Shown here: positions 1 through 41,126 of the stretch, one piece after another
How positions within the stretch are numbered: position 1 is the stretch's first letter
Layout of the letters: each line of letters opens with the position of its first letter
DNA from: Leucoraja ocellata
Taxonomy: Eukaryota
Direction: 5' to 3'
DNA: 64,000 bases
Assembly (NCBI GenBank): GCA_036785375.1
Contig: JAWMAR010000478.1
Span: 186,001-250,000, forward strand
Notes under the pieces: model-generated
What the model was told of the DNA's origin: nothing
The model's database searches: none
What the model saw: the letters and a program-made list of their open reading frames with translations, nothing else
Made by a program: the position numbers and the translations under genes

Positions 1-2293
1 TAGTTCCCGGGATGGCGGGACTGTCATATGTTGATAAAATGAAGTGGCTGGGCATGAAAACAGGCCCATATCCGTGTAAACATCCTCTCACAGAGTTATA
101 GTGATACATTGTGGAAACAGGCCCTTTGGCCCAACTTGTCCACACCAGCCAACATGCCCCAGCTACACTAGTCCCACCTGCCTGTGCTTGGTCCATATCC
201 CTGCAAACCAGTCCTATCCATGCACCTGTATAACTGTTTTGTAAATGTCGGGATAGTCACCGCCTCAATGACCTCTAATCCTCTCATGATTTATGCACTA
301 CTATAAGACTACGTTACAGTTTAGTTTATTGTCATGTTTACCGAGCTACAGTGAAAAGCTTTTGTTGTGTGCTAACCAGTCAGTGTACAGACCACACATG
401 ATTACAATCAAGCTGTTTACAGCGTTTAGATACACGATAAGGGAATAATGTTTAGTGCAAGGTAAAGGCAGCAAAGTTCGATCAAGGATAGACCGAGGGT
501 CAACAATGAGGTAGATAGTAGTTCAACGCTGCTCTCTGGTTGTGGTGGGATGGTTCAAGGTGTATCTGTGGTGCGTTTAGTTCAGTTTAGCTTATTGTCC
601 CGTGTACCGAGGTACAGTGAAAAGCTTTAGTTGTGTGCTAACCGTAAAAAAACTGCATAAAGTTGTGGACACAGCCCAGACCATCGCACAATCCAACCTC
701 CCTACCATCGACTCCATCTACACCTCACGCTGCCTCGACAAGGTCAGCAGCATTATCAAGGGCCAGTCTCACCCCGGCCACTCCTCTTCTCAAGGGCGGA
801 AATCTCTTTTAATACATGGGGGGGGGGACACAATTTCCTGGCGGCCCAAAGACAACACAATGTCTACGACAAGCTGCACCTAGTCGACGATTAATATGGT
901 TTAATCTACAATTTGAGTGGGAGAAGGGAAAATCAGAAATGTCAGCAGCATTTAGAAGGATGAGAGGCAATCTTATTGAAACATGTAAGATTGTGAAGGG
1001 ATTGGACACTAGGGGCAGGAACCATGTTCCCGATGTTGGGGGAGTCCAGAACCAGGGTCAACAATTTAAGAATAAGGGGTCGGCTGGTTAGCACACAACA
1101 AAAGCTTTTCACTGTAGCTCGGTAAACATGACAATAAACTAAACTGTAATGTAGTCTTATAGTAGAGTATAAATCATGAGAGGACACTGCTCTAGGAAGG
1201 AAGCTGAAAGGGTGCAGAGAAGATTCAAGACAATAGACAATAGGTGCAGGAGTAGGGCATTCGGCCCTTCAAGCCAGCACCGCCATTCAATGTGATCATG
1301 GCTGATCATCCACATGCAGTACCCCGTTCATGTCTTCTCACCATATCCCTTGACTCCGCTATCTTTAAGAGCTGTATCTAACTGTCTCTTGAAAGCATCC
1401 ATTGAATTGGCCTCCACTGCTTTCTGAGGCAGAGAATTCCACAGATTCACAATTCTCTGGGTAAAAACGTTTCTCCTCATCTCCGTTTTAAATGGCCGAC
1501 CCCTTATTCTTAAACTGTTGACCCTTGTGACACTAGTCCCACCTGCCTGTGCTTGGTCCATATCCCTGCAAACCAGTCCTATCCATGTACCTGTATAACT
1601 GTTTTGTAAATGTTGGGATAGTCTCTGCCTCAACGACCTCCTCTGGCAGCACATTCCATACACCCACCACCCACTGTGTGGAAAAGTTTCCCCTTAGATT
1701 CCTATTAAATCTTTTCCCCCTCACCTTAAACCTATGCTTTCTGATGTTCGATTCCCCTACTCTGGACAAGAGACTCTGTGCATCTACCCGATCTAATCCT
1801 CTCATGATTTATACACTACTATACGACTATGTTACAGTTTAGTTTATTGTCATGTTTACCGAGCTACAGTGAAAAGCTTTTGTTGTGTGCTAACCAGTCA
1901 GTGTACAGACCATACATGATTACAATCAAGCTGTTTACAGTATTTAGATACATGATAAGGGAACTGGTGTGAAAACGCACATCTCCAGATTCAGGGACAG
2001 TTTCTTCCCAGCTGTTATCAGGCCATTCTACCACAATTAGGGAGCAGTCCTGAACTACTATCTACCTCATTGGTGACCCTCGGACTATCTTTGATCGGAC
2101 TTTACTGGCTTTACCTTGCAGTAAACGTTATTCCCTTTGTTCTGTATCTGTACACTGTGGACGGCTCGATTGTAATCATGTATTGCCTTTCCGCTGACTG
2201 GATAGTACGACACAAAAGCTTTTCACTGTACCTCGTTACACGTGACAATAAATTAAACTGTAAAAACTGAAAACACACCTCTTGTTTTTACAG

Positions 2294-2390
2294 ATAAAGG
2301 CTTCAGTATTTGGAAGGCAGTTTTGCTTACAGCAGGGATAATACTGATGGCTGTGCTAGCTGGATTCATCATCTACAAGTATATACTGCG
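2294..2390 (+). CDS. Paralog B (plus strand, 5' exons outside window): TM exon DKGFSIWKAVLLTAGIILMAVLAGFIIYKYILR
   Basis: Inverted copy of 28935-29031 with intact tttttacag/gtaagt sites and 3 nt differences. Confidence 0.82.
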
Positions 2391-3311
2391 GTAAGTTTAA
2401 ATAAATCCACATTTTTACTTCCAAATCCATCTCTTTGTCATCTGCTTATGACTGCTTCTGCCAGGCTAACTCCTGTTCACAGACACAAAGTGCTGGAGTA
2501 ACTCAGCAGGTCAGGCAGCATCTCTGGAGAACATGGACAGGTACAAAGTGCTGGAGTAACTCAGAAGGTCAGGCAGCATCTCTGGGGATTCAGGAATAGG
2601 TGACATTTCGGGTCGGGACCTTCTTCAGACTAAAAGGTTGAGAAAGTTAGACCAAATCAGAGCCAGCGACAGATGGCCTTTAGACTGTTGTGAGCCATTT
2701 TGGGCCCCATATCTGAGGGAGGATGTGGCTCTGGAGAGGGTCCAAAGGATGTTTACGAGAATTATTAACATATGATGAGTGTTTGACACTTACTGGGCCT
2801 GTAGTAGCTGGAGTTCAGAAGGATGAGGGGTAAACCTCATTGATATTTAATGAATAGTGAATGGCCTGGATAGAGTGGATGTGGAGAGGATGTTTCCACT
2901 AGTGGGAGAGTGAGTTTAGGACCAGAGGCCACAGCCTTAGAATTAAAGGACTACCTTTAGGAAGCAGAGTAGGTGTTTCTTCAGTCAGAGGGTGGTGAAT
3001 CTGTGTAATTCTTTGCCACAGAAGGCTGTGGAGGCCAAGCCAATCAATATGTTTAAGGCAGAGATAGATAGGTTATTGATCAGTACGGGTGTCAGGGGTT
3101 ATGGGGAAAAAGGCAGGAGAATGGGATTAGGAGGAAGAGTTAGATCAGCCATGATTGAATGGCAGAGTAGACTTGATGGGCCGAATGACTTCATTCTGCT
3201 CCTATCATTAATGACCTCACGACTTTATGACCAACGTCTAATACAACTGCAACTTTGTACTTGGACTTTGCTGATGTGCTGTAAACTTGGTGTGATCTTC
3301 TGTTGCTGCAG

Positions 3312-3378
3312 GAGGGAAGATGCTTCAGGAAACCAAGACATCAATGTGATCTACTGCCCACAATCTGCCACCAATCAG
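3312..3378 (+). CDS. Paralog B: cytoplasmic exon 1 (REDASGNQDINVIYCPQSATNQ)
   Basis: Inverted copy of 27944-28010 with intact splice sites and 1 nt difference. Confidence 0.78.
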
Positions 3379-4670
3379 GTAGTGGAACTTTGTATTTAAT
3401 CTCAACTACAGATGATACAAACGTGGGTACAAAAAGCTGGAGTAACTCAGTGGAACAGGCAGAATCTCTGGAGAGAAGGAACAGGTGACGTTTCGGTCGA
3501 GACTCGAGGGGCCTGAGCTACAGGGAGAGGTTGAGCAGGCTGGGACTTTATTCCTTGGAGCGCAGGGGGATGAGGGGTGATCTTATAGATGTGTATAAAA
3601 TCATGAGAGGAATAGATCGGGTAGATGCACAGAGACTCTTGCCCAGAGTAGGGGAATCGAGGACCAGAGGACATAGGTTCAAGGTGAAGAGGGGAAAAAA
3701 TTTAAGGGGTTACTTTTTCACACAAAGGGTGGTGCGTGTATGGAACGAGCTGCTGGAGGAGGTAGTTGAGGCTGGGACTATCCCAACGTTTAAGAAACAG
3801 TTAGAAAGGTACATGGACCAAGCGCAGGCAGGTGGGACCAGTGTAGCTGGGCCATGTTGGCCGGTGTGGGCAAGTTGGGCAGAAGGGCCTGTTTCCACAA
3901 TGTGTGACTCTATATAGATGATGATGTACAGAGAGATAAAGAACAATGAATGAAAGATAGATGTAAACAAAGTAACGATGATAAAGGAAACAGGCCACTG
4001 TTAGTGGTTTGTTGGGTGAAAACGAGAAGCTGGTGAGACTTGGGTGGGGGAGGGATGGAGAGAGAGGGAATACAGGGCTACCTCAAGTGAGGGAAATCAA
4101 TGTTCATATCACTGGGCTGTAAGCCGCCCAAACGGAATATGTGACGCTGGTCCTCCAATTTGTGTTTAGCCTCACTCTGTCAATGGAGGCGACCGAGGAC
4201 AGAAAGGTCAGTGTGGGAAGGGGAATTAAAGTATTTAGCAACCGGGGGTATGAATATTGATTTATCTAACTATGTGAGAGTGTGTGGGTGTGAGAGTGGG
4301 TGTGAGAGAGAGAGAAAGTTGGAGAGAGGGGGAGACGGGGCGAGAGAGGGAGAGAGAGAGAGTGGGTGAAACTGCGAGTGTGAGAGACACAGTGCCTGAG
4401 TGTGAGCAAGTGAGAGAAAGAGGAGAGGGAGAAAGGGGGAGAGAGAAAGTGTGAAACTGCGAGGGAGAGGGAGAGGGAGGGAGAGAGAAAGTGAGAGGGG
4501 GAGAGAGAAGGAGAGCGAGAGTGTGTGAGAGGAGAACATCAACAACATGGCTGAACCTGGGTCTGTGGGAGTACAGGAGTTGTGAACCTTCTCACTGATG
4601 GTATTAAATGCCGGGCCACACTGCTCTGTACTAAACCCAGAACTGCCCGTCTGCTTCCCTTTCCTTCCAG

Positions 4671-4862
4671 AGCACGGGGAGTGGAGAGAACGGGCCGGCC
4701 CCAGTGGAGCGGAAAGAAGGAGGGGAATCAGGAGAGGGGGAAGAGCAAGCGGTCGTGTACGCCAACATGCAGGAGGTGCTGAGCAGCGGAGCCACCGGGC
4801 ACAGTGGCGAGGGGGTGGAATACGCGGAGCTCTGGTTCCAGTCCAAGAAGGGGAAGGGGTAG
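4671..4862 (+). CDS. Paralog B: terminal ITIM exon (STGSG...VVYANM...VEYAELWFQSKKGKG*)
   Basis: Inverted copy of 26467-26658, with acceptor ttccttccag and TAG at 4860-4862. It differs by 4 nt. Confidence 0.82.
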   Translation, partial: STGSGENGPAPVERKEGGESGEGEEQAVVYANMQEVLSSGATGHSGEGVEYAELWFQSKKGKG

Positions 4863-6902
4863 GTGGGAGGATGGAGGGAGGGGTGGTGAGGAGGGAGAGG
4901 CGATGGGGAGAGAGCGCTGCACCAGCCTTAACTACCTTGGGTTTCATAGATTAATTAACCCTCTGTAGATGAAATAGTGGGATAACATAGAACTATTGTG
5001 TGAACGGATGACCGATGGTCGGTGCGGACTCGGTGGGCTGAAGGGCCTGTTTCCCCGCTGTATCTCTTTAAAAAAGCCTTTGTTCTTTAGAACCCAGACT
5101 GTTCCGCAGGTAAATATTGATTTTTTTTTTTTCTTTTTAAAGAATAGAATAAGAAAAAAAAGTTAGATAGTAAAGGATAGAAAGATGTGAAATATATAGC
5201 GTGTGAAGAAAGAAAACGAGTAAATGAAGAAAGTTGAGAGAGAAAATAGAGAAAAGAAAATAAAATAAAAAAGAAAAGGAGATCATTATTTATAATCTTG
5301 ACCAACCCTCGTCCAGTCCTGAAACAGTTATTTTTTACAATTGTGTTGCACCATATGATTAAAAAAAAACAACGAATGGAGACCAACTCGTTATGAATTG
5401 GTCTGATTTATCCATTAGGAGGAATCGCATTTCCTCAAGATGAGCGGTGTCCAACATACTTGCAATCCACATTTTAAGCGTTGGTATTGATGTACCCTTC
5501 CAAAATTTAAGTATTAATTTTTTTGCTATTATTTAACCATAGTTAAGGAATAGATTTTGAGATGTGTTCAATTTATTCCCATCTTCCATTACACCAAATA
5601 TAACCATTTCAGTATTAGGTTCCATTCTTGTCTTGAATAATTTTGTAAATATTTCAAAAATATAATTCCAAAATCTATAAAGTTTTATGCAGGAAACTAA
5701 GGAGTGTGTTATAGTTGCCTTTTGGGCTAGACATTTATCACAAGTGGCGGATATATTTGGATAAAATTTGTTCAATCTTGTTTTTGAATAATATAATCTA
5801 TTTACAATTTTAAATTGAATTAGATTATTTGAATTCTATATCCAGAAAATGACCCAAATTCCTCTATTAAGTTTAATAAATTTGGTATGCTCGTTTGTGA
5901 CTTTGTAATGTATAAAAGTATATCGTCTGCATATAATGAGATTTTATTCTTTGAGTCCCTGGTATTATAGCCCTGAATATTCGGATGAATTCTTCTACTT
6001 TCAGCCAGGGGTTCTAACATAAGGGCAAATAGCAGGGGTGATAGTGAACATCCTTGCCTATTACCCTTTGATAGTTGAAATTTTTGAGATAACATGTTAT
6101 TAGTTAAAATTCTTGCCATCGGTTTATCATATAATAATTTTACCCATGTTATAAAATTCCCAAATTAAATTTTTGTAGTACTTTATATAAGTATTGCCAC
6201 TGTACCTGATCAAATGCTTTCTCTGCATCCAAAGAAATAATTGATATATCTTCTTCCTCTACTTTATGCGAGTACATTATATTAAACAGGCGTCTCAGAT
6301 TATTAAATGAGTATCTTTTAGGTATAAACCCTGTTTGATCAGGGTTTATCAATTTACTAATATATTTGCTTAATCTTCTTGCTAAAATATTTGTTAAAAT
6401 TTTCTGATCTGTATTTAAAAGTGATATAGCTCTGTACGAGCCCGGATCTTCTAAATCTTTATCTTTTTTTTTGGAATAAGCGTAATAGTTGATTCTGTTA
6501 GTGTTTCAGGTAGTTTGTTTTCTTTAAAAGCATGGGAGTATAAATTAAATAAATAAGGGGTCGTTATCTCCTGAAATTTTTTATAAAATTCATTATTAAA
6601 ACCATCTGGTCCCGGTGTCTTACCATTTTTCAGCGATTTTATTGGGGTAACTATTAACATTGACAATAATTGCTTCTATCAAATGATAGTCTGTTAAACA
6701 GTCTTTACCTGCAGTTACAAAATCCACTCGTAGCTATTAAAGATATATTTTGAGAATCCTGTGGGATTGTTGCTAATGCTATTCTGAAGCTCTTGCTCTT
6801 GTAGCACCATGTTCTATAACAAGTTTCATAGCAAGCAGCTCTCTGTGTGGCATTGGTGAGTAATAATAATAATGAAATGCAGACGCTGGAAATCTGACAA
6901 AG

Positions 6903-7590
6903 GGCGGCACGGTGGCGCAGCGGTAGAGTTGCTGCCTCGCAGCGCCAGAGACCCGGATTCGATCCTGACTACAGGTGCTGTCTGTGCGGATTTTGTACGT
7001 TCTCCCCGTGACCTGTGTGGGTTTTCTCCGGGATCTTCGGTTTCCTCCCACACCCCACAGATGGGCTGGTTTGTAGGTTAATTGGCTTGCTGTAAATGTA
7101 CATTGTCCCTGCTTACCCACCACACCACCTCCAGGTCCCACAGATCGGCAGACTTGGGGTTACTGAACATCCTGCGGTCTAGGCATAAGCTCAGGGGCCA
7201 CCGTGCCTTTGCGGTTGCAGCTCCGTGACTGTGGAACAGCATCCCTCTTCCCATCAGAACTGCCCCCTCCATCGACTCTTTTAAGTCGAGAGTTAAAACG
7301 CATCTTTACTCTCAAGCCTTTCTTGTCATCCCCTGAGGGCGGGCTATATGTATGAATTTATGTATGTACTTAATCTATGAACCACTGTTGTATAACGTTA
7401 GTACCTCCACCAATGTAAAGCACTTTGGTCAACGAGAGTTGTTTGTTAAATGTGCTATAGAAATAAAAGTGACTTGGCTTGACTTGACTTTGTGTGTGTA
7501 GTGTGCGGGGATCGCTGGTCGGCGCTGACTCGATGGGCCGAAGGTCCTGTTTCCGCGCTGTGTCTCTAAACTACACTAAACTAAACTAAT
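6903..7590 (+). mobile_element. HE1-type tRNA-derived SINE interrupted by an L2 3' fragment (7115-7489); representative of many copies (e.g. 18050-18290, 37360-37665, 40865, 47297, 57550-57845, 62680-62940)
   Basis: Pol III A box TGGCGCAGCGG, B-box-like GGATTCGATCC and a (CTAAA)n tail. The L2 piece encodes RAFAVAAP.LWNSIP and ends in (GACTT)n. Confidence 0.8.
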
Positions 7591-8874
7591 CAGTCATGGT
7601 CATCTAATAGTGGAGCAGGTGCAAGATTAATCCTGATACTATTTTTATATCATTACATGTTTTCTGCAGAGGATTTGGATTTGTTGCATTTGCAAACAAA
7701 GAGATTAAAATGCTGAACCATTACAGTCACATGTCTCAGAATTATGTTTTACACATCTCTTTTATTTGATTTTTGTCTCCTAATTTGAGGAAGGACATTC
7801 TTGCTATTGAGGCAGTGCAGCGTAGGTTCACCAGGTTAATTCCCGTGATGGTGGGACTGACATATGATGAAAGAATGTATCGACTGGGCTTGTATTCACT
7901 GGAATTTAGAAGGATGAGTGGGGACCTTATAGAAACATATACATCCTTAAGGGATTGGACAGTAATGCAGGGAAAATGTTCCCGATATTGGGGGGAGTCC
8001 AGAACTAGGGGTCACAGTTTAAGAATATGGGGTCAGCCATTTAGGACTGAGATGAGGAAAATCGTTTTCACCCAGAGAGTTGTGAATCTGGGAATTCTCT
8101 GCCACAGAAGGCAGTGGAGGCCAATTCACCTGATGTTTTCAAGAGTTAGATTTAGCTCTTTGGGCTAACGGAATGAAGGGATATGGGGAGAAAACAGGAA
8201 CGGGGTACTGATTTTGGATGGTCAGCCATGATCATATTGAGTGGCGGTGCTGGCACGAATGGCCGAATGACCTACTCCTGCACGTATGTTCTGTTTCCTC
8301 GCTGTGTCTCTAAACTAAACTAAAGCCTTCCGATTCCATTCCCATCTGAATATCTTGTAAAAGTCGCGATTGTGTCCTTTCAAAAGATTCAATTTTTTAA
8401 ATTTCAAAATATACTTTATTTGAGAAATAAATATATCCAATAGATGATCCTTACAACACTCCATCCAACATTCTTGGAGCCTATACATACTTTCAATAAT
8501 GTTTACACAAATTACACAAATTTATCCCCCACCCTTGCCACTCATGTGGCCCACTGGCATGGAATCCCTTCCCATATTTTTGAGGGGCGTCTCCACCACA
8601 CCCTGCCCCCCATGTCCAGCAGCGGAAGGAACCTAGACTGTGGTCCTCCCTCACTAAGAAATTTTTTTATATCAAAAAATGTAATCAATTATTAAAAATA
8701 ATATTTACAATACAATGAAACAAACCAGATCCCACCCCCATAATACAAGAGCAACAAATATACTAAATAAGCGACTATACAACTATGTTACAATCCTTGT
8801 CAAGGATGCATTCCACCCCCCGCCGTGCCCAACGGAGCGGCAAATCCCCCTGGTTGCCCGTGGACAGTGTGTAG

Positions 8875-9265
8875 CAAAGATCCTATAGCGAGTAAGATCG
8901 TCCACTCGACCAAAAGACATAGTACGGTCATGGGCATATTCATGGGTAATTTAAGGCCCCATTCCCGTAACCGGCTTCCGTCTCCGCACCACAGATCCCA
9001 TAGGTTAATAGTGCGATGACGGAAGCCGGTTACGGAAACATCCTCGTAAAAATAAAAGTTAGTTGGTAAAAATCTTCTTATTTTGAGAATTTTAATATAT
9101 TAACACAAACTGATCCCCCGCAGCGTTGATTACACTGCGAGTCGGGTCGGGTCCGGTTACGGAAATGGATGAAAAAAAGGCCCACGTTCCGTTCCGTTGC
9201 GGACTACACGTCAGCCCATTGTATTTAGCAGGAGTGGTCTATCTTGCTCCGCTATAGGATCTTTG
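8875..9265. mobile_element. hAT-like MITE (mirror copy 20967-21355)
   Basis: Imperfect TIRs of about 30 bp beginning CAAAGATCCTATAGCG. The 8-bp TSD is GTGTGTAG (8867-8874) / GTGCGTAG (9266-9273). Confidence 0.82.
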
Positions 9266-10309
9266 GTGCGTAGTCCCTCTCTAACACCACCCGGGCACGG
9301 ACGTAACCCCGGAAAAGGGGCAGGCAGCTGGCTCGGGCAGAGCCCTCTTCTGCCTGACCCAGTGACTCGAGGATGGCCAGCTTGGCCAGGCCCAGGAGCA
9401 ACCCAACCAGGACATCTTCAGCCCTACTCTCTCCCCCATGCACAGGGTGTCCAAAGATGATGATGGTGGGTGAGAAATGCAGCCAGAAGGCAAGTAGCAG
9501 CAGCTTTAGATATTGGAACAGGGGATGCAGTCTCACACACACACACACGTGGCTCACAGATTCTTCCAGCCCACAAAAGTGGCAGGCGGCTGGTGAGTCT
9601 GTGAACCGCGAGAGAAACAGGTTGCAGGGGACTCCGGTGCAATACCCAGCACCCCAGGTCCCCGATGTACAGGGGGAGAATCCCTGCGTAGAGGGACCCC
9701 CCCCCCCCACCGAGCCTTGGCGTTGGCTACACCAAGCTTCAGTGTGTACCTCAGCACGTACTCCTGCAGTCTGCAGCGGGCCAGTCAGCAACATTCTCCG
9801 ACAGACATCCCGCTCCGCTGGGTGGTCAACAAAGCTCGTGCAGACCAAAGGGCGTCTTTCACCGAGTTGATGACCTTCCAGCAGCACTCGATGTCAGTCT
9901 CTGAATGTGTCCCTGGGAACAGTCTGTAAATCACAGAGTCCTCTGTGACGGAGCTGTTCAGAATAAATCGTGACAGGGACCCTTGCAAACCTCTCCAGAC
10001 TCTCTTTGCAAATCCACACTCTGCAACGAGGTGGGCAACCGTCTCCTCTCCATAGCAGCCGTCCCAAGGGCAGCGTGCGCTGGTAGTGAGGTTCCGACGG
10101 TGCAGGAAGGATCTGACTGGGAGGGGTCCCCTCACTGCCAGCCAAGCCAGGTCTTGGTGCTTGTTGTTGAGTTCTGGCGATGAAGCATTTCGCCAGACAA
10201 GCTGGGCAGTCTGCTCTGGGAACCACGCCACAAGATCCATGGAGTCATTTTTCTGCAGTGCCTGCAGATCGTTCCGTGCTGACCACTGCGATGGACTTGT
10301 GGTCAATGG

Positions 10310-10880
10310 CAATAGTGAATAATCCTTCATTTAAACCATCTCTTACCAATAAAACATAACCAATGGGAAAGAATGGGAATTAAAAGGATCGGCGATATGT
10401 ATGAAATGGGAACTCTGTTATCATTCCAACAATTGCAATTAAAATTTGTTGAAAAATAGCCAATATTTTAAATATCTTCAGATCTGCGATTTCATGAAGA
10501 AATATATACAAAGACATCAAACTATAATTTTAGACCCACTGGAAGAAGCAATGAATATTAAGGCTGACTCACAGAAATTAATATCATATTTATATAATTG
10601 TATTTTAAGTATAGAACTACCATCGACAGAGAGAAGATTGAGAACGAGAATTATTGATAAAAATCACGAAAAAAACAGTATTTGATATATATACACATGA
10701 ATTTTCGATGAATGTAAGACATAACTTAATTCAATTCAAAATTTTACATAGATTATATTATTCAAAAACTAGACTGAATACATTTAATCCAAATACTTCT
10801 CCCATTTGTGACAAATGTTTATCTCAAAATGCCACTATAACACATTATTTTGTTTCCTGCATAAATCTCCATAAATTCTG
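10310..10880 (+). mobile_element. Internal L1 ORF2 fragment without poly-A
   Basis: Diverged homolog of 25060-25650 (YFKYLQICDF, NVRHNLIQFKILHRLY, CDKC). Confidence 0.85.
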
Positions 10881-23569: not shown

Positions 23570-26210
23570 GTTAATAGTTACCCCAATAAAATCGCTGAAA
23601 AATGGTAAGACACCGGGACCAGATGGTTTTAATAATGAATGTTATAAAAAATTTCAGGAGATAACGACCCCTTATTTATTTAATTTATACTCCCATGCTT
23701 TTAAAGAAAACAAACTACCTGAAACACTAACAGAATCAACTATTACGCTTATTCCAAAAAAAAGATAAATATTTAGAAGATCCGGGCTCGTACAGAGCTA
23801 TATCACTTTTAAATACAGATCAGAACATTTTAGCAAAGATTTTAGCAAGAAGATTAAGCAAATATATTAGTAAATTGATAAACCCTGATCAAACGGGGTT
23901 TATACCTAAAAGATACTCATTTAATAATCTGAGACGCCTGTTTAATATAATGCACTCGCATAAAGTAGAGGAAGAAGATATATCAATTATTTCTTTGGAT
24001 GCAGAGAAAGCATTTGATCAGATAGAGTGGCAATACTTATATAAAGTACTACAAAAATTTAATATGGGAATTTTATAACATGGGTAAAATTATTATATGA
24101 TAAACCGATGGCAAGAATTTTAACTAATAACATGTTATCTCAAAAATTTCAACTATCAAGGGGTAATAGGCAGGGATGTGCACTATCACCCCTGCTATTT
24201 GCCCTTATGATAGAACCCCTGGCTGAAAGTATAAGAATTCATCCGAATATTCAGGGCTATAATACCAGGGACTCAAAGAATAAAATCTCATTATATGCAG
24301 ACGATATACTTTTATACATTACAAAGTCACAAACAAGCATACCAAATTTATTAAACTTAATAGAGGAAATTGGATCTTTTTCTGGATATAGAATAAACTG
24401 GAACAAAAGTGAAATCATGACATTAAAACCTCAAGAACCTACACACTTATTGAAGTTCCCCTTTAAAATCGCAACAGAAAAATTTAAATATTTGGGTATT
24501 CAGACTACTGGAAAATATAAAGCATTATTCAACGCTAATTTCATACCTTTATTAAATAAACTTAATACGCTGATTAAATTTTGGAAAACACTTCCCTTAT
24601 CATTATTAGGTAGAATAAATGCAATAAAAATGATCTTCCTACCACAATTACTACATCTATTTCAGTCTATACCGGTATATATACCAAAATTTTTTAAATT
24701 AGACTCTAACATTACAAATTCTATTTGGGACTATAGATCACATAGAATCACAAAAAAACACTTATGTAAACCAAAAGAGGTCGGGGGACTTTCACTTCCG
24801 AAATTCACTTCCGAATTTTATGTATTATTACTGGGCAGTGCATATTAAGAATATGATTTATTGGTTGGATAGTTCTACCCAACAGACAGAATGGATAAAA
24901 ATGGAGAAGGAGGATTGCCATCCTTGTAATATAGGAACGATCCTCTTTTCCCCAAAAAAACTGAATAACACAATATATAAGAAGAATCCAATTATATATG
25001 GTACAATAAGAATTTGGAAACAAATAAAATTATCTTTGAAATTAAGAAATCTATCACTGTTAATGCCAATAGCGAATAACCCTTTATTTAAACTATCTCT
25101 TATTGATAAGACATATAACCAATGGGAAAGACTCGGAATTAGAGGGATCAGGGATATGTACGAAATGGGAAACCTACTATCATTCTAACAACTACAATTA
25201 AAATTTAAATTGAAAAACAACCAATATTTTAAATATCTTTAGATTTGCGACTTTGTGAAAAAATATATACAAGGATATCAAAAAGTAACCCCTGACTTAT
25301 TGGAAGAAGCAATGGATATTGAAGCTGGCCCACAAAAATTAATATCATATTTATATAATAGTATTCTAAATATAGACCTACCATCGACAGAGGTACTTCT
25401 GAGAAGAGTGGGAACGGGATCTAATGATAAAAATTACTAAGGTTAAATGGGAAAAATACCTGATATATATTCACAAATGTTCAATTAATGTAAGACATAA
25501 TCTAATACAATTTAAAATTGTACATAGATTATATTATTCAAAAACAAGATTGAACAGATTTTATCCAAATATATCCGCCACTTGTGATAAATGTCTAGCC
25601 CAAAAGGCAAATATAACACACTCCTTAGTTTCCTGCATAAAACTTTATAGATTTTGGAATGATATTTTTGAAATATTTACAAAATTATTCAAGACAAGAA
25701 TGGAACCTAATACTGAAATGATTATATTTGGTGTAATGGAAGATGGGAATAAATTGAACACATCTCAAAATCTATTCCTTAACTATGGTTTAATAATAGC
25801 AAAAAAATTAATACTTAAATTTTGGAAGGGTACATCAATACCAACGCTTAAAATGTGGATTGCAAGTATGTTGGACCACGCTCATCTTGAGGAAATGCGA
25901 TTCCTCCTAATGGATAAATCAGACCAATTCATAACGAGTTGGTCTCCATTCGTTGTTTTTTTGGAATCATATGGTGCAACACAATTGTAAAAAATAACTG
26001 TTTCAGGACTGGAAGAGGGTTGGTCAAGATTATAAATAATGATCTCCTTTTCTTTTTTATTTTATTTTCTTTTCTCTATTTTCTCTCTCAACTTTCTTCA
26101 TTTACTCGTTTTCTTTCTTCACACGCTATATATTTCACATCTTTCTATCCTTTACTATCTAACTTCTTTTTCTTATTCTATTCTTTTAAAAAAAAAATCA
26201 AAAAAAAATC
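23570..26210 (+). mobile_element. 5'-truncated L1-clade LINE (RT, C-terminal Cys/His finger, poly-A); the mirror copy at 5120-6660(-) has a deletion of about 1.1 kb
   Basis: PGPDGF, LDAEKAFD, RQGCALSPLLF, LYADD and CDKC...H...C motifs; A-tail at about 26188-26208. Confidence 0.92.
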
Positions 26211-26466
26211 AATATTTAGCCGCGGAACAGTCTGGGTTCTAAAGAACAAAGGCTTTTTTAAAGAGATACAGCGGGGAAACAGGCCCTTCAGCCCACCGAG
26301 TCCGCACCGACCATCGGTCATCCGTTCACACACTAGTTCTATGTTATCCCACTATGTCATCTACAGAGGGTTAATTAATCTATGAAACCCAAGGTAGTTA
26401 AGGCTGGTGCAGCGCTCTCTCCCCATCGCCTCTCTCTCCTCACCACCCTTCCCTCCATCCTCCCAC

Positions 26467-26658
26467 CTACCCCTTCCCCTGCTTGGACTGGAACCAGAGC
26501 TCCGCGTATTCCACCCCCTCGCCACTGTGCCCGGTCTCTCCGCTGCTCAGCACCTCCTGCATGTTGGCGTACACGACCGCTTGCTCTTCCCCCTCTCCTG
26601 ATTCCCCTCCTTCTTTCCGCTCCACTGGGGCCGGCCCGTTCTCTCCACTCCCCGCGCT
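26467..26658 (-). CDS. Siglec-like gene A: terminal coding exon with VVYANM and VEYAEL tyrosine motifs and stop
   Basis: ctttccttccag|AGC GCG GGG ... GTC GTG TAC GCC AAC ATG ... GTG GAA TAC GCG GAG CTC ... GGG TAG, 192 nt. VEYAEL fits the ITIM consensus (I/V/L/S)xYxx(L/V). Confidence 0.85.
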   Translation of the reverse strand, partial: SAGSGENGPAPVERKEGGESGEGEEQAVVYANMQEVLSSGETGHSGEGVEYAELWFQSKQGKG

Positions 26659-27943
26659 CTGGAAGGAAAGGGAAGCAGACGGGCAGTTATGGGTTTAGTA
26701 CAGAGCAGTGTGGCCCGGCATTTAATACCATCAGTGAGAAGGTTCACAACTCCTGAACTCCCACAGAACCTGGTTCAGCCATGTTGTTGATGTTCTCCTC
26801 TCACACACTCTCGCTCTCCTTCTCTCTCCCCCTCTCTCACTTTCTCTCCCTCTCCCTCTCCTCTCACTTGCAGTTTCACACTTTCTCTCTCCCCCTTTCT
26901 CCCTCTCCTCTTTCTCTCACTCGCTCACACTCAGGCACCGTGTCTCTCACACTCGCAGTTTCACCCACTCTCTCTCTCTCCCTCTCTCGCCCCGTCTCCC
27001 CCTCTCTCCAACTTTCTCTCTCTCTCACACCCACTCTCACACCCACACACTCTCACATAGTTAGATAAATCAATATTCATACCCCCGGTTGCTAAATACT
27101 TTAATTCCCCTTCCCACACTGACCTTTCTGTCCTCGGTCGCCTCCATTGACAGAGTGAGGCTAAACACAAATTGGAGGGCCAGCATCACATATTCCGTTT
27201 GGGCAGCTTACAGCCCAGTGATATGAACATTGATTTCCCTCAGTTGAGGTAGCCCTGTGTTCCCTCTCTCTCCATCCCTCCCCCACCCAAGTCGCACCAG
27301 TTTCTCGTTTTCACCCAACAAACCACTAACCTGTTTCCTTTATCATCGTTACTTTGTTTACATCTATCTTTCATTCATTGTTCTTTATCTCTCTCTACAT
27401 CATCATCTATATAGAGTCATTCATTGTGGAAACAGGCCCTTCTGCCCAACTTGCCCACACCGGCCAACATGGCCCAGCTACACTAGTCCCACCTGCCTGC
27501 GCTTGGTCCATGTACCTTTCTAACTGTTTCTTAAACATTGGGATAGTCCCAGCCTCAACTACCTCCTCCAGCAGCTCGTTCCATACACGCACCACCCTTT
27601 GTGTCAAAAAGTTACCCCTCAGATTTTTTCCCCTTCACCTTGAACCCATGTCCTCTGGTCCTCGATTCCCCTACTCTGGGCAAGAGACTCTGTGCATCTA
27701 ACCGATCTATTCCTCTCATGATTTTATACACCTCTATAAGATCACCCCTCATCCCCCTGCGCTCCAAGGAATAGAGTCCCAGCCTCCTCAACCTCTCCCT
27801 GTGGCTCAGGCCCCTCAAGTCTCGACCGAAATATCACCTGTTCCTTCTCTCCAGAGATTCTGCCTGTTTCACTGAGTTACTCCAGCTTTTTGTACCCACG
27901 TTTGTATCATCTGTATTTGAGATTAAATACAAAGTTCCACTAC

Positions 27944-28010
27944 CTGATTGGTGGCAGATTGTGGGCAGTAGATCACATTGGTGTCTTGGTTTCCTGAAGC
28001 ATCTTCCCTC
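27944..28010 (-). CDS. Siglec-like gene A: cytoplasmic exon 1 (REDASGNQDTNVIYCPQSATNQ)
   Basis: 67 nt, gttgctgcag|G...CAG|gtagtg, phase 2 to 0. It bridges the TM and terminal exons exactly in frame. Confidence 0.8.
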
Positions 28011-28934
28011 CTGCAGCAACAGAAGATCACACCAAGTTTACAGCACATCAGTAAAGTCCAAGTACAAAGTTGCAGTTGTATTAGACGTTGGTCATAAAGT
28101 CATGAGGTCATTAATGATAGGAGCAGAATGAAGTCATTCGGCCCATCAAGTCTACTCTGCCATTCAATCATGGCTGATCTAACTCTTCCTCCTAATCCCA
28201 TTCTCCTGCCTTTCTCCCCATAACCCCTGACACCCGTACTGATCAATAACCTATCTATCTCTGCCTTAAACATATTGATTGGCTTGGCCTCCACAGCCTT
28301 CTGTGGCAAAGAATTACACAGATTCACCACTCTATGACTGAAGAAACTCCTACTCTGCTTCCTAAAGGTAGTCCTTTAATTCTAAGGCTGTGGCCTCTGG
28401 TCCTAAACTCACTCTCCCACTAGTGGAAACATCCTCTCCACATCCATTCTATCCAGGCCATTCACTATTCATTAAATATCAATGAGGTTCCCCCCTCATC
28501 CTTCTAAACTCCAGCTAGTACAGGCCCAGTAAGTGTCAAACACTCATCATATGTTAATCATTCTCGTAAACATCCTTTGGACCCTCTCCCGAGCCAGCAC
28601 ATTCTCCTTCAGATATGGGGCCCAAAACGGCTCACAACAGTCTAAAGACCATCTGTTGCTGGCTCTGATTTGGTCTAACTTTCTCAACCTTTCAGTCTGA
28701 AGAAGGTCCCGACCCGAAATGTCACCTATTCCTGAATCCCCAGATATGCTGCCTGACCTGCTGAGTTACTCCAGCACTTTGTACCTGTCCATGTTCTCCA
28801 GAGATGCTGCCTGACCCGCTGAGTTACTCCAGCACTTTGTGTCTGTGAACAGGAGTTAGCCTGGCAGAAGCAGTCATAAGCAGATGACAAAGAGATGGAT
28901 TTGGAAGTAAAAATGTGGATTTATTTAAACTTAC

Positions 28935-29031
28935 CGCAGTATATACTTGTAGATGATGAATCCAGCTAGCACAGCCATCAGTATTATCCCTGCTGTAAGC
29001 AAAACTGGCTTCCAAATACCGAAGCTTTTAT
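28935..29031 (-). CDS. Siglec-like gene A: transmembrane exon (DKSFGIWKPVLLTAGIILMAVLAGFIIYKYILR)
   Basis: 97 nt, tttttacag|AT...CG|gtaagt, phase 1 to 2. It contains a 19-residue uncharged span followed by basic residues, and is in frame with the 35764 exon. Confidence 0.88.
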
Positions 29032-32000
29032 CTGTAAAAACAAGAGGTGTGTTTTCAGTTTAATTTATTGTCTGGTGTAACGAGGTACAGTGAAAAGCTT
29101 TTGTGTCGTGCTATCCAGTCAGCGGAAAGGCAATACATGATTACAATCGAGCCGTCCACAGTGTACAGTTACAGGACAAAGGGAATAACGTTTAGTGCAA
29201 GGTAAAGCCAGCAAAGTCCGATCAAAGATAGTCCGAGGGTCACCAATGAGGTAGATAGTAGTTCAGGACTGCTCCCTAATTGTGGTAGAATGGCCTAATA
29301 ACACCTGGGAAGAAACTGTCCCTGAATCTGGAGATGTGCGTTTTCACGCCAGTTCCCTTATCATGTATCTAAATACTGTAAACAGCTTGATTGTAATCGT
29401 GTATGGTCTGTACACTGACTGGTTAGCACACAACAAAAGATTTTCACTGTGGCTGGGTAAACATGACAATAAACTAAACTGTAACGTAGTCTTATAGTAG
29501 AGTATAAATCATGAGAGGATTAGATCGGGTAGATGCACAGAGTCTCTTGCCCAGAGTAGGGGAATCGAACATCAGAAAACATAGGTTTAAGGTGAGGGGG
29601 AAAAGATTTAATACAAATCTAAGGGGAAACTTTTCCACACAGTGGGTGGTGGGTGTATGGATTGTGCTGCCAGAGGCCGTTGAGGCAGAGACTATCCCAA
29701 CATTTACAAAACAGTTATACAGGTACATGGATAGGACTGGTTTGCAGGGATATGAACCAAGCACAGGCAGGTGGGACTAGTGTCACTGGGGCATGTTGGC
29801 TGGTGTGGACAAGTTGGGCCAAAGGACCTGTTTCCACAATGTATCACTATAACTCTGTGAGAGGATGTTCACACGGATATGGGCCTGTTTTCATGCGATG
29901 TCACTATGACTCAATGATATCTTGCCTGCCGCAGATGTTAGTTTGTAGTTGTTGTGCAAGACATTGGTGAGACCGCATTTGAGGTATTGCGTCCAGTTTT
30001 AGTCACACTGCTCTAGGAAGGAAGCTGGAAAGAGTGCAGAGAAGATTCAAGACAATAGACAATAGGTGCAGGAGTAGGCCATTCGGCCCTTCGAGCCAGC
30101 ACCGCCATTCAATGTGATCATGGCTGATCATCCACATTCAGTACCCCGTTCCTGTCTTCTCACCATATCCCTTGACTCCGCTATCTTTAAGAGCGCTATC
30201 TAACTGTCTCTTGAAAGCATCCATTGAATTGGCCTCCACTGCTTTCTGAGGCAGAGAATTCCACAGATTCACAATTCTCTGGGTAAAAACGTTTCTCCTC
30301 ATCTCCGTTTTAAATGTCCCACCCCTTATTCTTAAACTGTGGCCCCTGGTTCTGAACTCCCCCAACATCGGGAACATGTTTCCTGCCCCTAGTGTCCAAT
30401 CCCTTCACAATCTTACATGTTTCAATAAGATTCCCTCTCATCTTTCTAAATGCCAGAGTATACAAGCCCAGCCCCTCCATTCTATCAAGATATGACAGTC
30501 CCGCTATCCCGGGAATTAACCTTGTGAACCTACGCTGCACTCCCTCAATAGCAAGAATGTTCTTCCTCAAATATGGAGATCAAAACTGCACACAATACTG
30601 AAGACTGATCGGATACTTTCAAGAGAGCTAGATAGACCCCTTAAAGATAGTGGAGTCAAGGCATACGGTGAAAAAGCAGGAACGGGTGTCTGAATGTGGA
30701 TGATCAGCCCTGATCAAATTGAATGGCGGTGCTGGCTCCAAGGGCCAAATGGCCTACTCTGCTCCCATTGTCTATTGTCAAAGTACCCGTTCAACTCGTC
30801 TGCCATTTCCTTGTTCCCCATAATAAATTCACCTGTTGTCGTCTTCAAGATTCCAACTTCGGTCTGAACTAATTTTTTCCTCTTCACATACCTAAAGAAG
30901 CTTTTACTATCCTCCTTTATATTCTTGGCTGGCTTACCTTCGTACCTCATCTTTTATACCCCGCATCACCTTCTTAGTTATCTTCTGTTGCTCTTTAAAA
31001 GTTACCCAATCCTGTGGCTTCCCACTCATCTTGCAATGTTATACTTCTCTTTAATTTTATACTGTCCTTGACTTCCCTTGTCAGCCACGGTCGCCCCTTA
31101 CTCCCCTTGGAATCTTTCTCCCTCTTTGGAATGAACTGACCCTGCACCTTCTGTATTATTCCCAGATATACCTGCCATTGTTGTTCCAATGTCATCCCTG
31201 CCAGGGAATTTTTCCAGTCAACTTTGGCCAGCTCCTCCCTCATGGCTCCATAGTCCCCTTTGTTCAACTGTAATATTGACATTTCTGATTTTCCCTTCTC
31301 CCTCTCAAATTGTAGATTACAACATATTAATCGTCGACTAGGTGCAGCTTGTCGTAGACATTGTGTTGTCTTTGGGCCGCCAGGAAATTGTGTTCCCCCC
31401 CATGTATTAAAAGTGATTTCCGCCCTTGAGAAGAGGGAGTGGCCGGGGTGAGACTGGCCCTTGATAATGCTGCTGGCCTTGTCGAGGCAGCGTGAGGTGT
31501 AGATGGAGTCGTTGGTAGGGAGGTTGGATTGTGCGATGGTCTGGGATGTGTCCACAACTTTATGCAATTTTTTACGGTTAGCACACAACTAAAGCTTTTC
31601 ACTGTACCTCGGTACACGGGACAATAGGCTAAACTGTACTAAACAAACCACAGATGTACCTTGAACCATCCCACCACAACCAGAGAGCAGTGCTGAACTA
31701 CTATCTACCTTATTGGTGACCCTCGGTCTATCCTTGATCGGACTTTACTGCATTTACCTTGCACTAAACATTATTCCCTTATCATATATGTAAACACTGT
31801 AAACAGCTTGATTGTAATCATGTATTGTCTGTACACTGACTGGTTAGCACACAACAAAAGCTTTTCACCGTAGCTCGGCGCACACATGACAATAAACTAA
31901 ACTGTAACGTAGTCTTATAGTAGTGTATAAATCATGAGAGGATTAGATCGGGTAGATGCGCAGAGTCTCTTGCCCAGAGTAGGGGAATCGAACATCAGAA

Positions 32001-32329
32001 AACATAGGTTTGAGGTGAGGGGAAAAAGGTTTAATAGGAATCTAATGGGTAACTTTTTCACACAGATGGGTGTATGGACTCAGCTGCCAGAGGCCGTTGA
32101 GGCAGAGACTATCCCAACATTTACAAAACAGTTATACAGGTACATGGATAGGACTGGTTTGCAGGGATATGGACCAAGCACAGGCAGGTGGGACTAGTGT
32201 AGCTGGGGCATGTTTGCTGGTGTGGACAAGTTGGGCCGAAGGGCCTGTTTCCACAATGTATCACTATAACTCTGTGAGAGGATGTTTAGACGGATATGGG
32301 CCTGTTTTCATTCGATGTCACTATGACTC

Positions 32330-35175
32330 AATGATATCTTGCCTGCCGCGGATGTTAGAGTCTAGTTGTGCAAGACGTTGGTGAGACCGCATTTGAGGTA
32401 TTGCGTTCAGTTTTAGTCACACTGCTCTAGGACGGAAGCTGGAAAGAGTGCAGAGAAGATTCATGACTATAGACAATAGGTACAGGAGTAGGCCATTCGG
32501 CCCTTCGAGCCAGCACTGCCATTCAATGTGATCATGGCAGATCATCCACATGCAGTACCCCGTTCCTGCCTTCTCACCATATCCCTTGACTCCGCTATCT
32601 CTAAGAGCTCCATCTAACTCTCTCTTGAAAGCCTCCAGAGATTCACAATTCTCTGGGTAAAACGTTTTTCCTCATCTCCATTTTAAATGGCCTACCCCTT
32701 ATTCTTAAACTGTGGCCCCTTGTTCTGGACTCCTGCAACAGGAACATGTTTCCTGCTACTAGCGTGTTCAATCCCTTCGTAATCTTACATGTTTCAATAA
32801 GATCCCTTCTCATCCTTCTAAATTCCAGTGTATACAAGCCCAGCCGCTTCATTCTATCAACATATGACAGTCCCGCCATCCCGGGAATTAACCTCATGAA
32901 CCTACGCTGCACTCCCTCAATAGCAAGAATATCTTTCCTCAAATTTGGAGACCAAAACTGCACACAATACACCAGGTGTGGTCTCACCAGGGCCCTGTAC
33001 ATCTGCAGAAGGACCTATTTGCTCCTATATTCAACTCCTGCTGTAATGAAGACCAGCATGCCATTGCCGTTCTTCGCTGCATGTTGTACCTGCATGCTTA
33101 CTTTCAGTGACTGATGAACAAGATCTCTTTGTACTTCCCCTTTTCCCAACTTGACACCATTCAGATAATAATCTGCCTTCCTGTTTTTGCCACCAAAGAG
33201 GATAACCTCATATTTATCCACATTAAATTGCATCTGCCATGCACCCGCCCACTCACCCAACCTGCTGAGGTCCCTCAGCATCCTCATAGCATCCTCCTCA
33301 CAGTTCACACTGCCACCCAGCTTTGTGTCATCTGCATATTTGCTGATGGTTCTTTGAATCCCTTCATCTAAATAATTGATGTATATTGTAAATTGCTGCA
33401 TTCCCAGCACTGAGCCTTGCGGTACCCCACTAGTCACTGCCTGCCATTCTGAAAGGGACCCGTTAATCCCTAGTCTTTGTTTCCTGTCTGCCAACCAATT
33501 TTATATCCATGTCAGTAGCCTACCCCCAATACCATGTGCTCTAATTTTGCCACTAATCTCCTATGTGGGACCTTATCAAATCTATCAACACCATTACTAA
33601 AACTCTCATCTTGTCCTCTTCCCGTTTGCGTTGTTTTTAAATTTGAGCAAAAACGGTACCCAATATCGCTAGGATATATCGCCACCTTACTCACCGTCCT
33701 CTGCTCCAAGTGCACCAAATTTTGTTCTGATTACAAAAGTTATGAAGGTTTACAAAATCATGAGATCAGTAGATCGGTCTTCTCGCCTGTTAGTCACCAT
33801 GAAGGTTACGCCCCTTCTGGCACCCGCTGTTAATCATCGGGCGGGGCGAGGAGAATAAAGCCCCGGAGGCGGAACTGAGTCCTCAAGTCGTGCTGATTGA
33901 GTCCTCGAGCCTTGCGGAGGAGGGAGACCAGCGAAGTGACCAGCGCCCGCTGTGAGTCCCCATCGCACCCTTAACCCCTTCCCCTCTGGTCCGCCTCGCT
34001 GGCTCCCGCACCCCCTCTCCGTAATACTGCACACTTCCCCATGGCTCTTCCCCCGTCTTTTCTCTGAGCTCTCTCTCCACCCTGCCCACACCCCTCCCCC
34101 CACACCCTCACCGCCCCACACACCCCTCACCACCCCACAACCATTCTCCCCACACACCCTTACCTCCCACACACCCCTCACAACCTCCCTGCCCACACCC
34201 CCCCACAATGCACCCCCACACCACACCCCCAGCCCACACACCCCTCTCCCCCACAACTGCCCCTCTCCCCCACAATCCCCCTCCTCCCCACACAATCCCC
34301 CCTCCCCCACACAATCCCCCCTCCCCCACACAATCCCCCCTCCTCCCACAACCCCCGCCTCTCTCCACACACACACACACACAAACTCCCCCCCCCACAC
34401 AACCCCCACCCCACACACACCCTCCCCCACCTGAAAACCCCTCATCCACAACACCCCCTGCCCACACACAACCCTCCCCCAAACCACTCCCTCCCCCTCC
34501 CACATCCTCCCTCCCTCCCACAGCCCACCCACACAACCCCACCCCCCTCCTCCCCCACATCCCTCCTCCTCCCCCCTTGGAAATCCCTCCAGCCCACATA
34601 CACACGTTCTCACCCACCCCTCCCCAACACACACTCCCCGTGGTGTTTAGGACCCAATGGGTCCCACTTAGTCTAGTACTTATTGAAAGTCTAGGTACAC
34701 TACATCCACTGGCTCTCCCTTGTCCATTTTCCCAGTTACATCCTCAAAAAATTCCAGAAGATTAATCAAGCATGATTTCCCCTTCATAAATCAATGTGAC
34801 TCCGACTGATCCTGTTACTGCTATCCAAATGTGCCGCTATTTCATCTTTTACAATTGACTCCAGCACCTTCCCCACCACCTATGTCACACTAACTGGTCT
34901 ATAATTCCTTGTTTTCTCTCTCAAACCATGCTTAAAAAGTGGAAAAACATTATCTACCTTCCAATCCACAGGAACTGATCCTGAATCTATAGAACATTGG
35001 AAAATGATCACCAATGTGTCCACAATTTCTTGAGCCACTTCCATAAGTACCCTGGGATGCAGGTCATCAGGCCCTGGGGATTTATCAGCTTCAGTCCCAT
35101 CTGTCTACCCAACACCATTTCCTGCCTAATGTGAATTTCCTTCAGTACCTCCGTCATCCAAGATCCTCTGGCCAT
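32330..35175 (-). mobile_element. Degenerate CR1/HER1 LINE (RT region) interrupted by the Helitron; related pieces at 29900-31320
   Basis: GVPQGSVLG, YADDTK and LVRPHL.YCVQFWSP motifs; (TCTATTG)n-type tail. Confidence 0.85.
33581..34676 (+). mobile_element. Non-autonomous Helitron
   Basis: Begins A|TC and ends with the hairpin GGACCC-aat-GGGTCC (34650-34664) followed by CTAG|T. It has no TSD, and the interrupted CR1 rejoins as ccttatcaaa|tacttattgaaagtc. Confidence 0.82.
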
Positions 35176-35763: not shown

Positions 35764-36048
35764 CTTCCGTCCACAGATACAGCGTGAACATGGCTTCCCC
35801 GTGCCGGTTTCGGACTGAGCACACGTTCTCCCCTCCCTCACCCCATCTCAGAGTGAGGGAGCCATTCACCAGATGCCCGCTTGCCACCTGCCAGATGTGG
35901 AGACGTCCGTGGGTTTGATTTCCGCTGAGGTTGGCGAGGGGGAGGTGACGGGTGAGCTCTCCGGGTGGGTTGCACCTGGCCGCACACACACAGGTGACAC
36001 TCTCAGGTGTGTGAGTGCATCCCGAATCTCGGGAAATCTTTGGCGCAT
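35764..36048 (-). CDS. Siglec-like gene A: membrane-proximal Ig domain 4 (MAG domain-5 type)
   Basis: 285-nt phase 1-1 exon (cctccag|ATGCGCC...GAAG|gtgagg): YAPKISRDSGCTHTPESVTCVCAARCNPPG...VNGSLTL...VCSVRNRHG. The SxC...CxC...NP pattern resembles the last Ig domain of MAG. The acceptor has a short pyrimidine tract. Confidence 0.8.

Positions 36049-41092: not shown

Positions 41093-41126
<34 letters not shown>

What the first reader, a model, noticed from the sequence alone, without database searches (positions are those of the whole stretch)
1..32890. Giant palindrome creates a tail-to-tail pair of Siglec paralogs
Seen in sequence: arms of about 15 kb each face one another across a centre of about 2.8 kb. 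Each carries intact TM, cyto1 and ITIM exons, and homology continues beyond the window start. Established knowledge: mammalian CD33-related Siglec clusters evolve by inverted duplication and gene conversion between paired genes. Inference: an independent, recent instance of the same cluster-building mechanism, with the arms available for conversion and recurrent inversion.
Basis: partly seen in the sequence, partly recalled or inferred. Interest (0 to 1): 0.8.

Follow-up and report, generated by a model that had tools for sequence, protein, structure and literature searches.

The report
Decayed inverted duplication of skate Siglec
In a skate, the back half of a sugar-sensing immune receptor gene (a Siglec) is present twice, facing tail to tail, about 96% alike and interrupted by large deletions; this is likely an ageing flip inside a large gene cluster rather than a fresh palindrome, an ordinary event for such gene families.

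Summary
The inverted repeat is real but overstated. About 11.0 kb aligns, in nine blocks, at 3.6% substitution divergence, broken by four arm-specific segments of 0.4-3.5 kb. Both arms carry open TM, cytoplasmic and ITIM exons. The right arm belongs to a complete 542-aa Siglec with V-set Arg114. The animal is a skate, not a mammal. The gene sits in a shark-and-ray Siglec clade; grouping it with MAG or inside mammal-type CD33r is rejected. Divergence steps from 2.6% around the gene tail to 4.9% inwards and about 9% at the centre, which suggests an older inversion whose outer part was later partly re-homogenised. No recent conversion tract was found. Unlike SIGLEC11/16 (head-to-head, shared ectodomain, opposite signalling), these copies share inhibitory tails. 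No public contig spans the centre, and little-skate heterozygosity is 1.6%, so a mis-join is not excluded (about 17%). Paralog B's Ig exons lie outside the window and are untested. This scan has already noted the skate Siglec family on other DNA of this genome. Verdict: ordinary cluster dynamics in an under-described family.

The parts
1..15532 (+). Left arm of the inverted duplication (10,995 bp mirrored)
18294..32890 (-). Right arm of the inverted duplication
15533..18293 (.). Centre, 2761 bp, mostly LINE/SINE pieces and simple repeats
15791..15990 (+). Inner inverted repeat U, 8.8% diverged from U', no other copy in the window
16567..16768 (-). Inner inverted repeat U'
2294..2390 (+). Paralog B transmembrane exon, no charged residue
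3312..3378 (+). Paralog B cytoplasmic exon 1
4671..4862 (+). Paralog B last exon with VVYANM and VEYAEL motifs and stop
26467..26658 (-). Gene A last exon with VVYANM and VEYAEL motifs and stop
27944..28010 (-). Gene A cytoplasmic exon 1
28935..29031 (-). Gene A transmembrane exon
35764..36057 (-). Gene A fourth Ig-like exon; weak acceptor (alternative start 36048); Arg where relatives have Trp; no Pfam hit
38475..38756 (-). Gene A third Ig exon, intact copy (I-set, E 3e-10)
41273..41372 (-). 3' half-copy of the third Ig exon
47794..48500 (-). Broken copy of the third Ig exon, split by a LINE fragment
49381..49674 (-). Gene A C2-set exon (E 1e-9)
50131..50493 (-). Gene A V-set exon with YFFR (Arg114)
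51226..51265 (-). Gene A signal-peptide exon
   Evidence: matches the N-termini of relatives
10968..14486 (.). Left-only 3.5 kb: continuation of a LINE with RT and zf-RVT hits plus another LINE piece; likely deleted from the right arm
10310..10877 (.). Left-only 568-bp LINE fragment standing in place of 391 bp kept in the right arm (19524-19914)
24395..25496 (.). Right-only 1.1 kb inside a LINE ORF2; likely deleted from the left arm
62629..63307 (+). Direct-orientation paralog of 18003-18668 (7.3% diverged), a likely flank of the next array unit

Best explanation
This is an inverted segmental duplication of the 3' half of a skate Siglec gene, likely an old orientation switch inside a multi-copy Siglec array whose gene-tail part was probably re-homogenised later by gene conversion or unequal exchange. 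Shown: two collinear inverted arms, open TM and ITIM exons in both, a complete gene A on the minus strand, kb-size segments specific to each arm, and a divergence step. Inferred step 1: one unit of the array was copied or flipped so that two 3' flanks met; the inner repeat U/U' (8.8%) may mark the original fold point. Inferred step 2: each arm then lost or gained LINE pieces independently. Inferred step 3: about 6.4 kb from the TM intron to 3 kb past the stop was exchanged with the partner or another family copy, resetting divergence to 2.6%. Predicted function: gene A is an inhibitory sialic-acid receptor recruiting SHP-type phosphatases through its tyrosine motifs (by analogy, untested). B would be the same if its Ig exons exist upstream. 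A crossover between the arms would flip only repeat-filled DNA and swap tails that differ at 7 of 117 residues, so little functional effect is expected.
For: Collinear blocks and arm-specific segments on both sides. Differences look biological, not read error: 73 of 537 CpG-site columns differ against 249 of 9054 others. Change-point at left position about 7918 (interval 7201-9510), 2.6% against 4.9%, 0 of 1000 permutations reach it; it holds without CpG sites (Fisher p 2e-7) and for transversions alone (p 0.002). The inner flank has a direct paralog at 62.6 kb. An intron duplication 6.7% diverged is present in both arms in register, so it predates the exchange. Thorny skate has five such models on one 13.4-Mb sequence and five on a 23.5-Mb one. 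In public runs, contig X1 record 6 bridges the right-arm deletion junction (19374-19472, 0 other letters, 1 gap), while X2 record 14 and X6 record 30 stop matching at 19430, as the undeleted form would. Centre and inner-arm contigs are deeper than the thinnest listed contigs of the same run, for example 386-568 against 12-65 in X3 (suggestive only, the tool says depth is no copy number, and 32 of 437,365 pieces were shown).
Against: No contig spans the centre, so adjacency is not independently shown. Little-skate heterozygosity is 1.6% (PMC10115646, passages), so 2.6-3.6% is within reach of two divergent alleles at an immune locus. No identical run exceeds chance (239 bp, p 0.25; 111 bp, p 0.45), so conversion rests on the step alone, and local mutation-rate differences could mimic it. 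The centre is rearranged: a second small inverted match (15530-15671 with 16195-16340) is off the U/U' diagonal, so U/U' may be a separate event. The 200-bp block 15333-15532 is a LINE tail no closer to its mirror than to other copies. Tails A and B differ at 7 codons, none synonymous (P 0.17): no sign of purifying selection. X1 could be the source animal.
Confidence: 0.6

Rival explanations
1. Assembly artefact: two haplotypes, or two paralogous units from elsewhere in the array, were joined in inverted orientation.
For: Skate heterozygosity can be 1.6% (PMC10115646, passages); a thorny skate primary assembly had 21% duplicated BUSCOs (PMC7788845, passages); the region is repeat-dense; no contig spans the centre.
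Against: No gap in the window. A fold-back read would give near-identical arms without CpG bias or kb-size differences. A 200-bp inverted repeat at 8.8% lies only 576 bp apart inside the centre. Four kb-scale differences within 15 kb is a lot for two alleles (inference).
Confidence: 0.17
2. A real inverted duplication of one age, decaying without exchange; the divergence step reflects faster mutation in the GC-richer inner LINE.
For: No excess identical tract; the inner block is a GC-richer retroelement.
Against: The step persists without CpG sites and in transversions alone. The outer block is also largely retroelement DNA, and divergence rises again to 4-5% outward at 54-944.
Confidence: 0.16
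3. One reading: a recent palindrome kept alike by ongoing arm-to-arm conversion, building a paired receptor as in mammalian CD33-related clusters.
For: Inverted arms of several kb at 96-97% with open exons in both; lowest divergence over the gene tail.
Against: 3.6% divergence, 29% of the left arm unmirrored, no long identical run. Both tails carry the same tyrosine motifs and an uncharged TM, unlike SIGLEC11/16.
Confidence: 0.07

Closest known systems
Amblyraja radiata RefSeq models XP_032870526.1 (P0007, 'CD33-like') and XP_032870542.1 (P0067)
   Same: Nearest rows in the tree (100/99); V exon 79% identical to P0007; tail B 89% and 87% identical; the same broken third-Ig-exon reading appears in P0008.
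   Different: Their orientation and flanks could not be read here, so it is unknown whether the tail-to-tail pair is shared.
Primate SIGLEC11/SIGLEC16 pair (PMC5701461, passages read)
   Same: Neighbouring Siglec paralogs in inverted orientation with fragmented conversion tracts.
   Different: Head-to-head, 9 kb apart, about 3 kb of ectodomain exons shared, inhibitory against activating. Here tail-to-tail, stops 21.6 kb apart, the shared part is TM plus tail plus 3' flank, and both tails are inhibitory in type.
Mammalian CD33rSiglec locus, ancient large-scale inverse duplication (Cao et al. 2009, PMID 19337729; only the title seen in a reference list)
   Same: Inverse duplication as a way to enlarge a Siglec cluster.
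   Different: That event concerns a whole mammalian cluster. This one covers at least part of one gene in a separate shark-and-ray clade (nesting rejected, p-AU 2e-6).
MAG / Siglec-4
   Same: Best solved-structure match for the V exon (E 1e-23); many relatives carry 'MAG-like' names.
   Different: True MAG rows form their own clade (98/97); joining them with the skate clade is rejected (p-AU 0.009).
Conversion-maintained palindromes such as those of the human Y (recalled, no call)
   Same: Inverted arms with a spacer and genes on both arms.
   Different: Those arms are above 99.9% identical (recalled); these are 96.4% alike with large indels.

Membership tests
Siglec family (gene A) | N-terminal V-set domain followed by C2-set domains, type I TM | tested here: met
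   Pfam V-set E 2e-11, C2-set_2 E 1e-9, I-set E 3e-10; open 542-aa model
Siglec family (gene A) | Essential Arg on the V-set F strand | tested here: met
   YFFR Arg114 aligns with the YYFR of MAG and the YNFR of sialoadhesin
Siglec family (gene A) | Extra cysteines for intrasheet and V-to-C2 disulfides | tested here: met
   Cys 35, 40, 96, 157, 163, 214; the first three align with MAG; bond pattern recalled, not modelled
Siglec family (gene A) | Binds sialic acid | not testable with these tools
   needs a binding assay
Siglec family (paralog B) | Has V-set and C2-set exons | not testable with these tools
   they would lie about 3-18 kb before the window start; no genome held
Inhibitory Siglec tail | Membrane-proximal ITIM and distal ITIM-like motif, uncharged TM | tested here: met
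   VVYANM (ends in Met, looser than the L/V signature quoted in PMC7226832) and VEYAEL in both A and B; signalling untested
CD33-related Siglecs, broad sense | One clade with bony-vertebrate CD33r Siglecs | tested here: inconclusive
   Shark-and-ray clade (98/98) is sister to char plus tetrapod CD33-like rows at 85/85, unstarred
Mammalian CD33rSiglec radiation | Nested with mammal-type rows | tested here: not met
   p-AU 2e-6; the group held 2 named and 3 unnamed rows and was chosen after seeing a first tree
MAG / Siglec-4 orthologues | One clade with MAG | tested here: not met
   p-AU 0.009; group chosen after seeing a first tree; no shark MAG row identified
Paired Siglec receptors | Near-identical ectodomains with opposite signalling tails | tested here: not met
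   tails identical at 110 of 117 residues, both with tyrosine motifs, no TM Lys or Arg; ectodomain of B unseen
Conversion-maintained palindrome | Near-identical arms with long identical tracts | tested here: not met
   3.6% divergence; longest identical run 239 bp, p 0.25
Inverted segmental duplication | Collinear inverted copies over 1 kb and over 90% identical | tested here: met
Inverted segmental duplication | Both copies adjacent on one real chromosome | tested here: inconclusive
   no contig spans the centre

The most novel reading that the evidence does not exclude
Sharks and rays independently built a large inhibitory Siglec cluster, and in skates concerted evolution acts on the signalling half: tail-to-tail and tandem copies exchange their TM-ITIM ends while ligand domains diversify, the mirror image of SIGLEC11/16. 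This locus would be a captured exchange tract and a polymorphic inversion that shuffles tails among ectodomains.
Probability: 0.2. Interest if true: 0.5.

Novelty: new member of a known kind. Interest (0 to 1): 0.27.

Why it matters
As a structure it is ordinary: inverted, partly homogenised paralogs are expected in fast-evolving immune clusters. Its value is as one more view of an under-described family. 64 of 66 homologues found carry shark, ray or skate names (2 unnamed), and 31 of the 44 with a detectable TM carry a loose ITIM-like motif (71 proteins scanned). A teleost study states that fish genomes lack inhibitory CD33-related Siglecs and does not mention sharks (PMC7226832, passages). 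My searches listed no paper on the elasmobranch expansion, but subscription papers are mostly missing and RefSeq already names these genes. If tail-side exchange proves general, it would show a second way to run concerted evolution in Siglec clusters.

Tried and rejected
Whole-genome look-up for paralog B's Ig exons: no genome is held. Sequencing runs: of 24 listed, the best held 0.53 of the words, and no RNA holder was listed; small-share rows were not used. One lay gave data (16770-20500, four contig runs): the stretch is almost all repeat, depth bins are swamped and no piece spans it, so the read-depth and centre-spanning tests remain open. The left arm, the exons and the RNA runs have no lay, so expression and left-arm junctions are untested. 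Read-error or fold-back chimera: rejected on CpG bias and kb-size differences. Breakpoint by recombination between two LINE tails at 18294-18668: considered, but the seven-copy alignment gave no diagnostic switch. Recent conversion tract: none beyond chance. Positive selection on the tails: 0 of 7 changed codons synonymous, not significant (P 0.17). Dating in years: not attempted; the only rate seen is per generation for a shark (7e-10, PMC10587355, passages). Look-ups of earlier scan notes by sequence and by words found nothing. Angata et al. 2004 (PMC516556) is not held. PMC6288428 and PMC8455134 passages said nothing on shark Siglec clusters. No supplements were read; the whale shark paper's gene-family supplement may bear on the novelty claim.
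Full report
Observation. A self-comparison shows a collinear inverted duplication between 1-15532 and 18294-32890. Its main blocks are 1527-5828 with 25497-29786 (96.7%), 5833-10309 with 19915-24394 (95.7%), 14487-15335 with 18591-19437 (94.1%) and 274-944 with 31277-31947 (94.4%). Over nine blocks, 396 of 10,970 aligned sites differ, 3.6%. Only 10,995 of 15,532 left-arm bases are mirrored. Arm-specific segments are 10310-10877 and 10968-14486 on the left, 19524-19914 and 24395-25496 on the right. Two of them continue LINE reading frames that are cut in the other arm, so I read them as one deletion on each arm (inference). The centre is 2761 bp and the window has no N. The largest inverted match off the diagonal is 569 bp at 76%. 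Collinearity reaches base 1; what lies beyond could not be read because no genome is held.

Genes. The right arm is the 3' end of a complete minus-strand gene A: eight exons with GT-AG sites give an open 542-residue protein with signal peptide, V-set, C2-set, two further Ig-like domains, TM and a tail with VVYANM and VEYAEL. The V domain has Arg114 in YFFR and the Siglec cysteine pattern; its best solved matches are MAG, sialoadhesin, CD33 and Siglec-5. Signs of wear: two broken extra copies of the third Ig exon, and a fourth Ig exon with a weak acceptor and Arg in place of the Trp seen in relatives. The left arm carries TM, cyto1 and last exons of paralog B on the plus strand, all open. The tails differ at 8 of 356 bases and 7 of 117 residues, with no synonymous codon; this is compatible with chance (P 0.17) and with the flanking rate.

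Organism and family. All 64 named hits among 66 homologues of the V exon are from sharks, rays and skates; the best named is Amblyraja radiata at 79%. Thorny skate models cluster on a 13.4-Mb and a 23.5-Mb sequence. For a tree I took V plus C2 domains: 182 rows in a quick tree (181 of 214 proteins passed the length filter, plus gene A), then 36 chosen rows, 4 of them unnamed, in IQ-TREE (names). Gene A sits with two Amblyraja rows (100/99) inside a 14-row shark-and-ray clade (98/98). That clade is sister to char plus tetrapod CD33-like rows at 85/85, not starred. Holding it with MAG is rejected (p-AU 0.009); holding it with mammal-type rows alone is rejected (2e-6). Both groups were defined after seeing a first tree, and three outgroup rows are long branches. 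So the gene is a Siglec of a separate elasmobranch radiation, CD33-related only in a broad and weakly supported sense.

History of the arms. The differences look like real mutations: 13.6% at CpG-site columns against 2.75% elsewhere. Divergence is uneven: 2.6% from 1527 to about 7918, 4.9% inwards (0 of 1000 permutations reach this), 8.0% in the last 200 bp, and 8.8% in a 200-bp inverted repeat inside the centre (15791-15990 with 16567-16768). Outwards it rises to 4-5%. The step holds without CpG sites and for transversions. The simplest reading is an older inversion with a later exchange over the gene tail. Against this: no identical run exceeds chance (239 bp, p 0.25), the last 200-bp block is a common LINE tail, and the centre holds a second, off-diagonal inverted match, so the 8-9% figures may not date the same event. 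The inner flank 18003-18668 has a direct paralog at 62629-63307 (7.3%), which points to a tandem array on the minus strand; an earlier scan note places another Siglec copy 43 kb past the window end (e1-9501494, not checked here).

Is the join real? No listed run holds more than 0.53 of the words of 10000-19990. The one lay with data (16770-20500, four contig runs) is swamped by repeats and no piece spans the stretch. Of 32 pieces shown out of 437,365, one in X1 bridges the right-arm deletion junction with no other letter, and one each in X2 and X6 stops matching at 19430, as the undeleted form would; their further letters were not shown. Several centre and inner-arm pieces are deeper than the thinnest pieces of their run, a hint that this flank is multi-copy in other skates; the tool warns that depth is no copy number. 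Little-skate heterozygosity is 1.6% (PMC10115646, passages), so divergence alone does not separate paralogs from alleles. A gapless inverted join, kb-scale differences on both arms and an inverted repeat 576 bp apart in the centre favour a real structure. I put that at about 83%.

Comparison. SIGLEC11 and SIGLEC16 lie head-to-head 9 kb apart and share about 3 kb of ectodomain exons by repeated conversion, one inhibitory and one activating (PMC5701461, passages). The mammalian cluster is reported to come from an ancient large inverse duplication (Cao et al. 2009; title only). The skate locus works like these in that inversion and exchange shape a Siglec cluster. It differs in geometry and consequence: the shared half is the inhibitory tail, so it is not a paired receptor, and an inversion between the arms would move only repeat DNA and near-equivalent tails. 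Recurrent inversion is possible in principle, but perfect homology is short.

Novelty. The structure is a new member of a known kind. The family behind it is named in RefSeq, has been noted several times by this scan on other pieces of the same genome, and was not the subject of any paper listed in my searches, which miss most subscription journals. PMC7226832 (passages) says fish lack inhibitory CD33-related Siglecs, speaking of teleosts; 31 of 44 TM-bearing elasmobranch relatives have ITIM-like motifs. That contrast is the most interesting thing here, and it does not depend on the palindrome. Interest 0.27.

Noticed in passing
window 41273-41372, 47794-48500, 38475-38756 (minus): The third Ig exon of gene A is present three times: one intact, one split by a LINE fragment, one as a 3' half inside a 2-kb direct duplication (39419-41441 with 45862-47958, 4.4% diverged). 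A thorny skate model (P0008) reads into the same broken copy.
   Followed up: partly
window 35764-36057 (minus): Fourth Ig exon has a purine-rich acceptor, Arg for a conserved Trp and is four residues shorter than relatives; the nearest thorny skate model P0007 skips the third and fourth Ig exons.
   Followed up: partly
window 50628-51193: 33-bp minisatellite, 17 copies, 94% matches, fills the intron between the signal-peptide and V exons; P0080 ends in a translation of a similar unit.
   Followed up: no
window 41898-44645 (minus): Long LINE with a 656-codon open RT frame (Pfam RVT_1 E 8e-35) inside an intron of gene A, probably a young insertion.
   Followed up: partly
window 15530-16768: Small rearranged knot in the centre: a 200-bp non-repetitive inverted repeat 576 bp apart plus an off-diagonal inverted CT-rich match and a short direct repeat.
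   Followed up: partly
window 29353-30598 and 31774-32970: 1.2-kb direct duplication (6.7% diverged) in the intron before the TM exon, also present in reduced form in the left arm.
   Followed up: yes
window 53991-54130 (minus): Short non-repetitive stretch with an acceptor-like and a donor-like end, 2.7 kb upstream of gene A's start; possibly a non-coding first exon.
   Followed up: no
proteins P0001-P0071: The elasmobranch family has several tail classes: two-tyrosine tails, one-tyrosine tails and tails of 5-11 residues.
   Followed up: partly
window 13979-14115: 42-bp tandem repeat (3.3 copies) inside the 5' part of the left-only retroelement.
   Followed up: no
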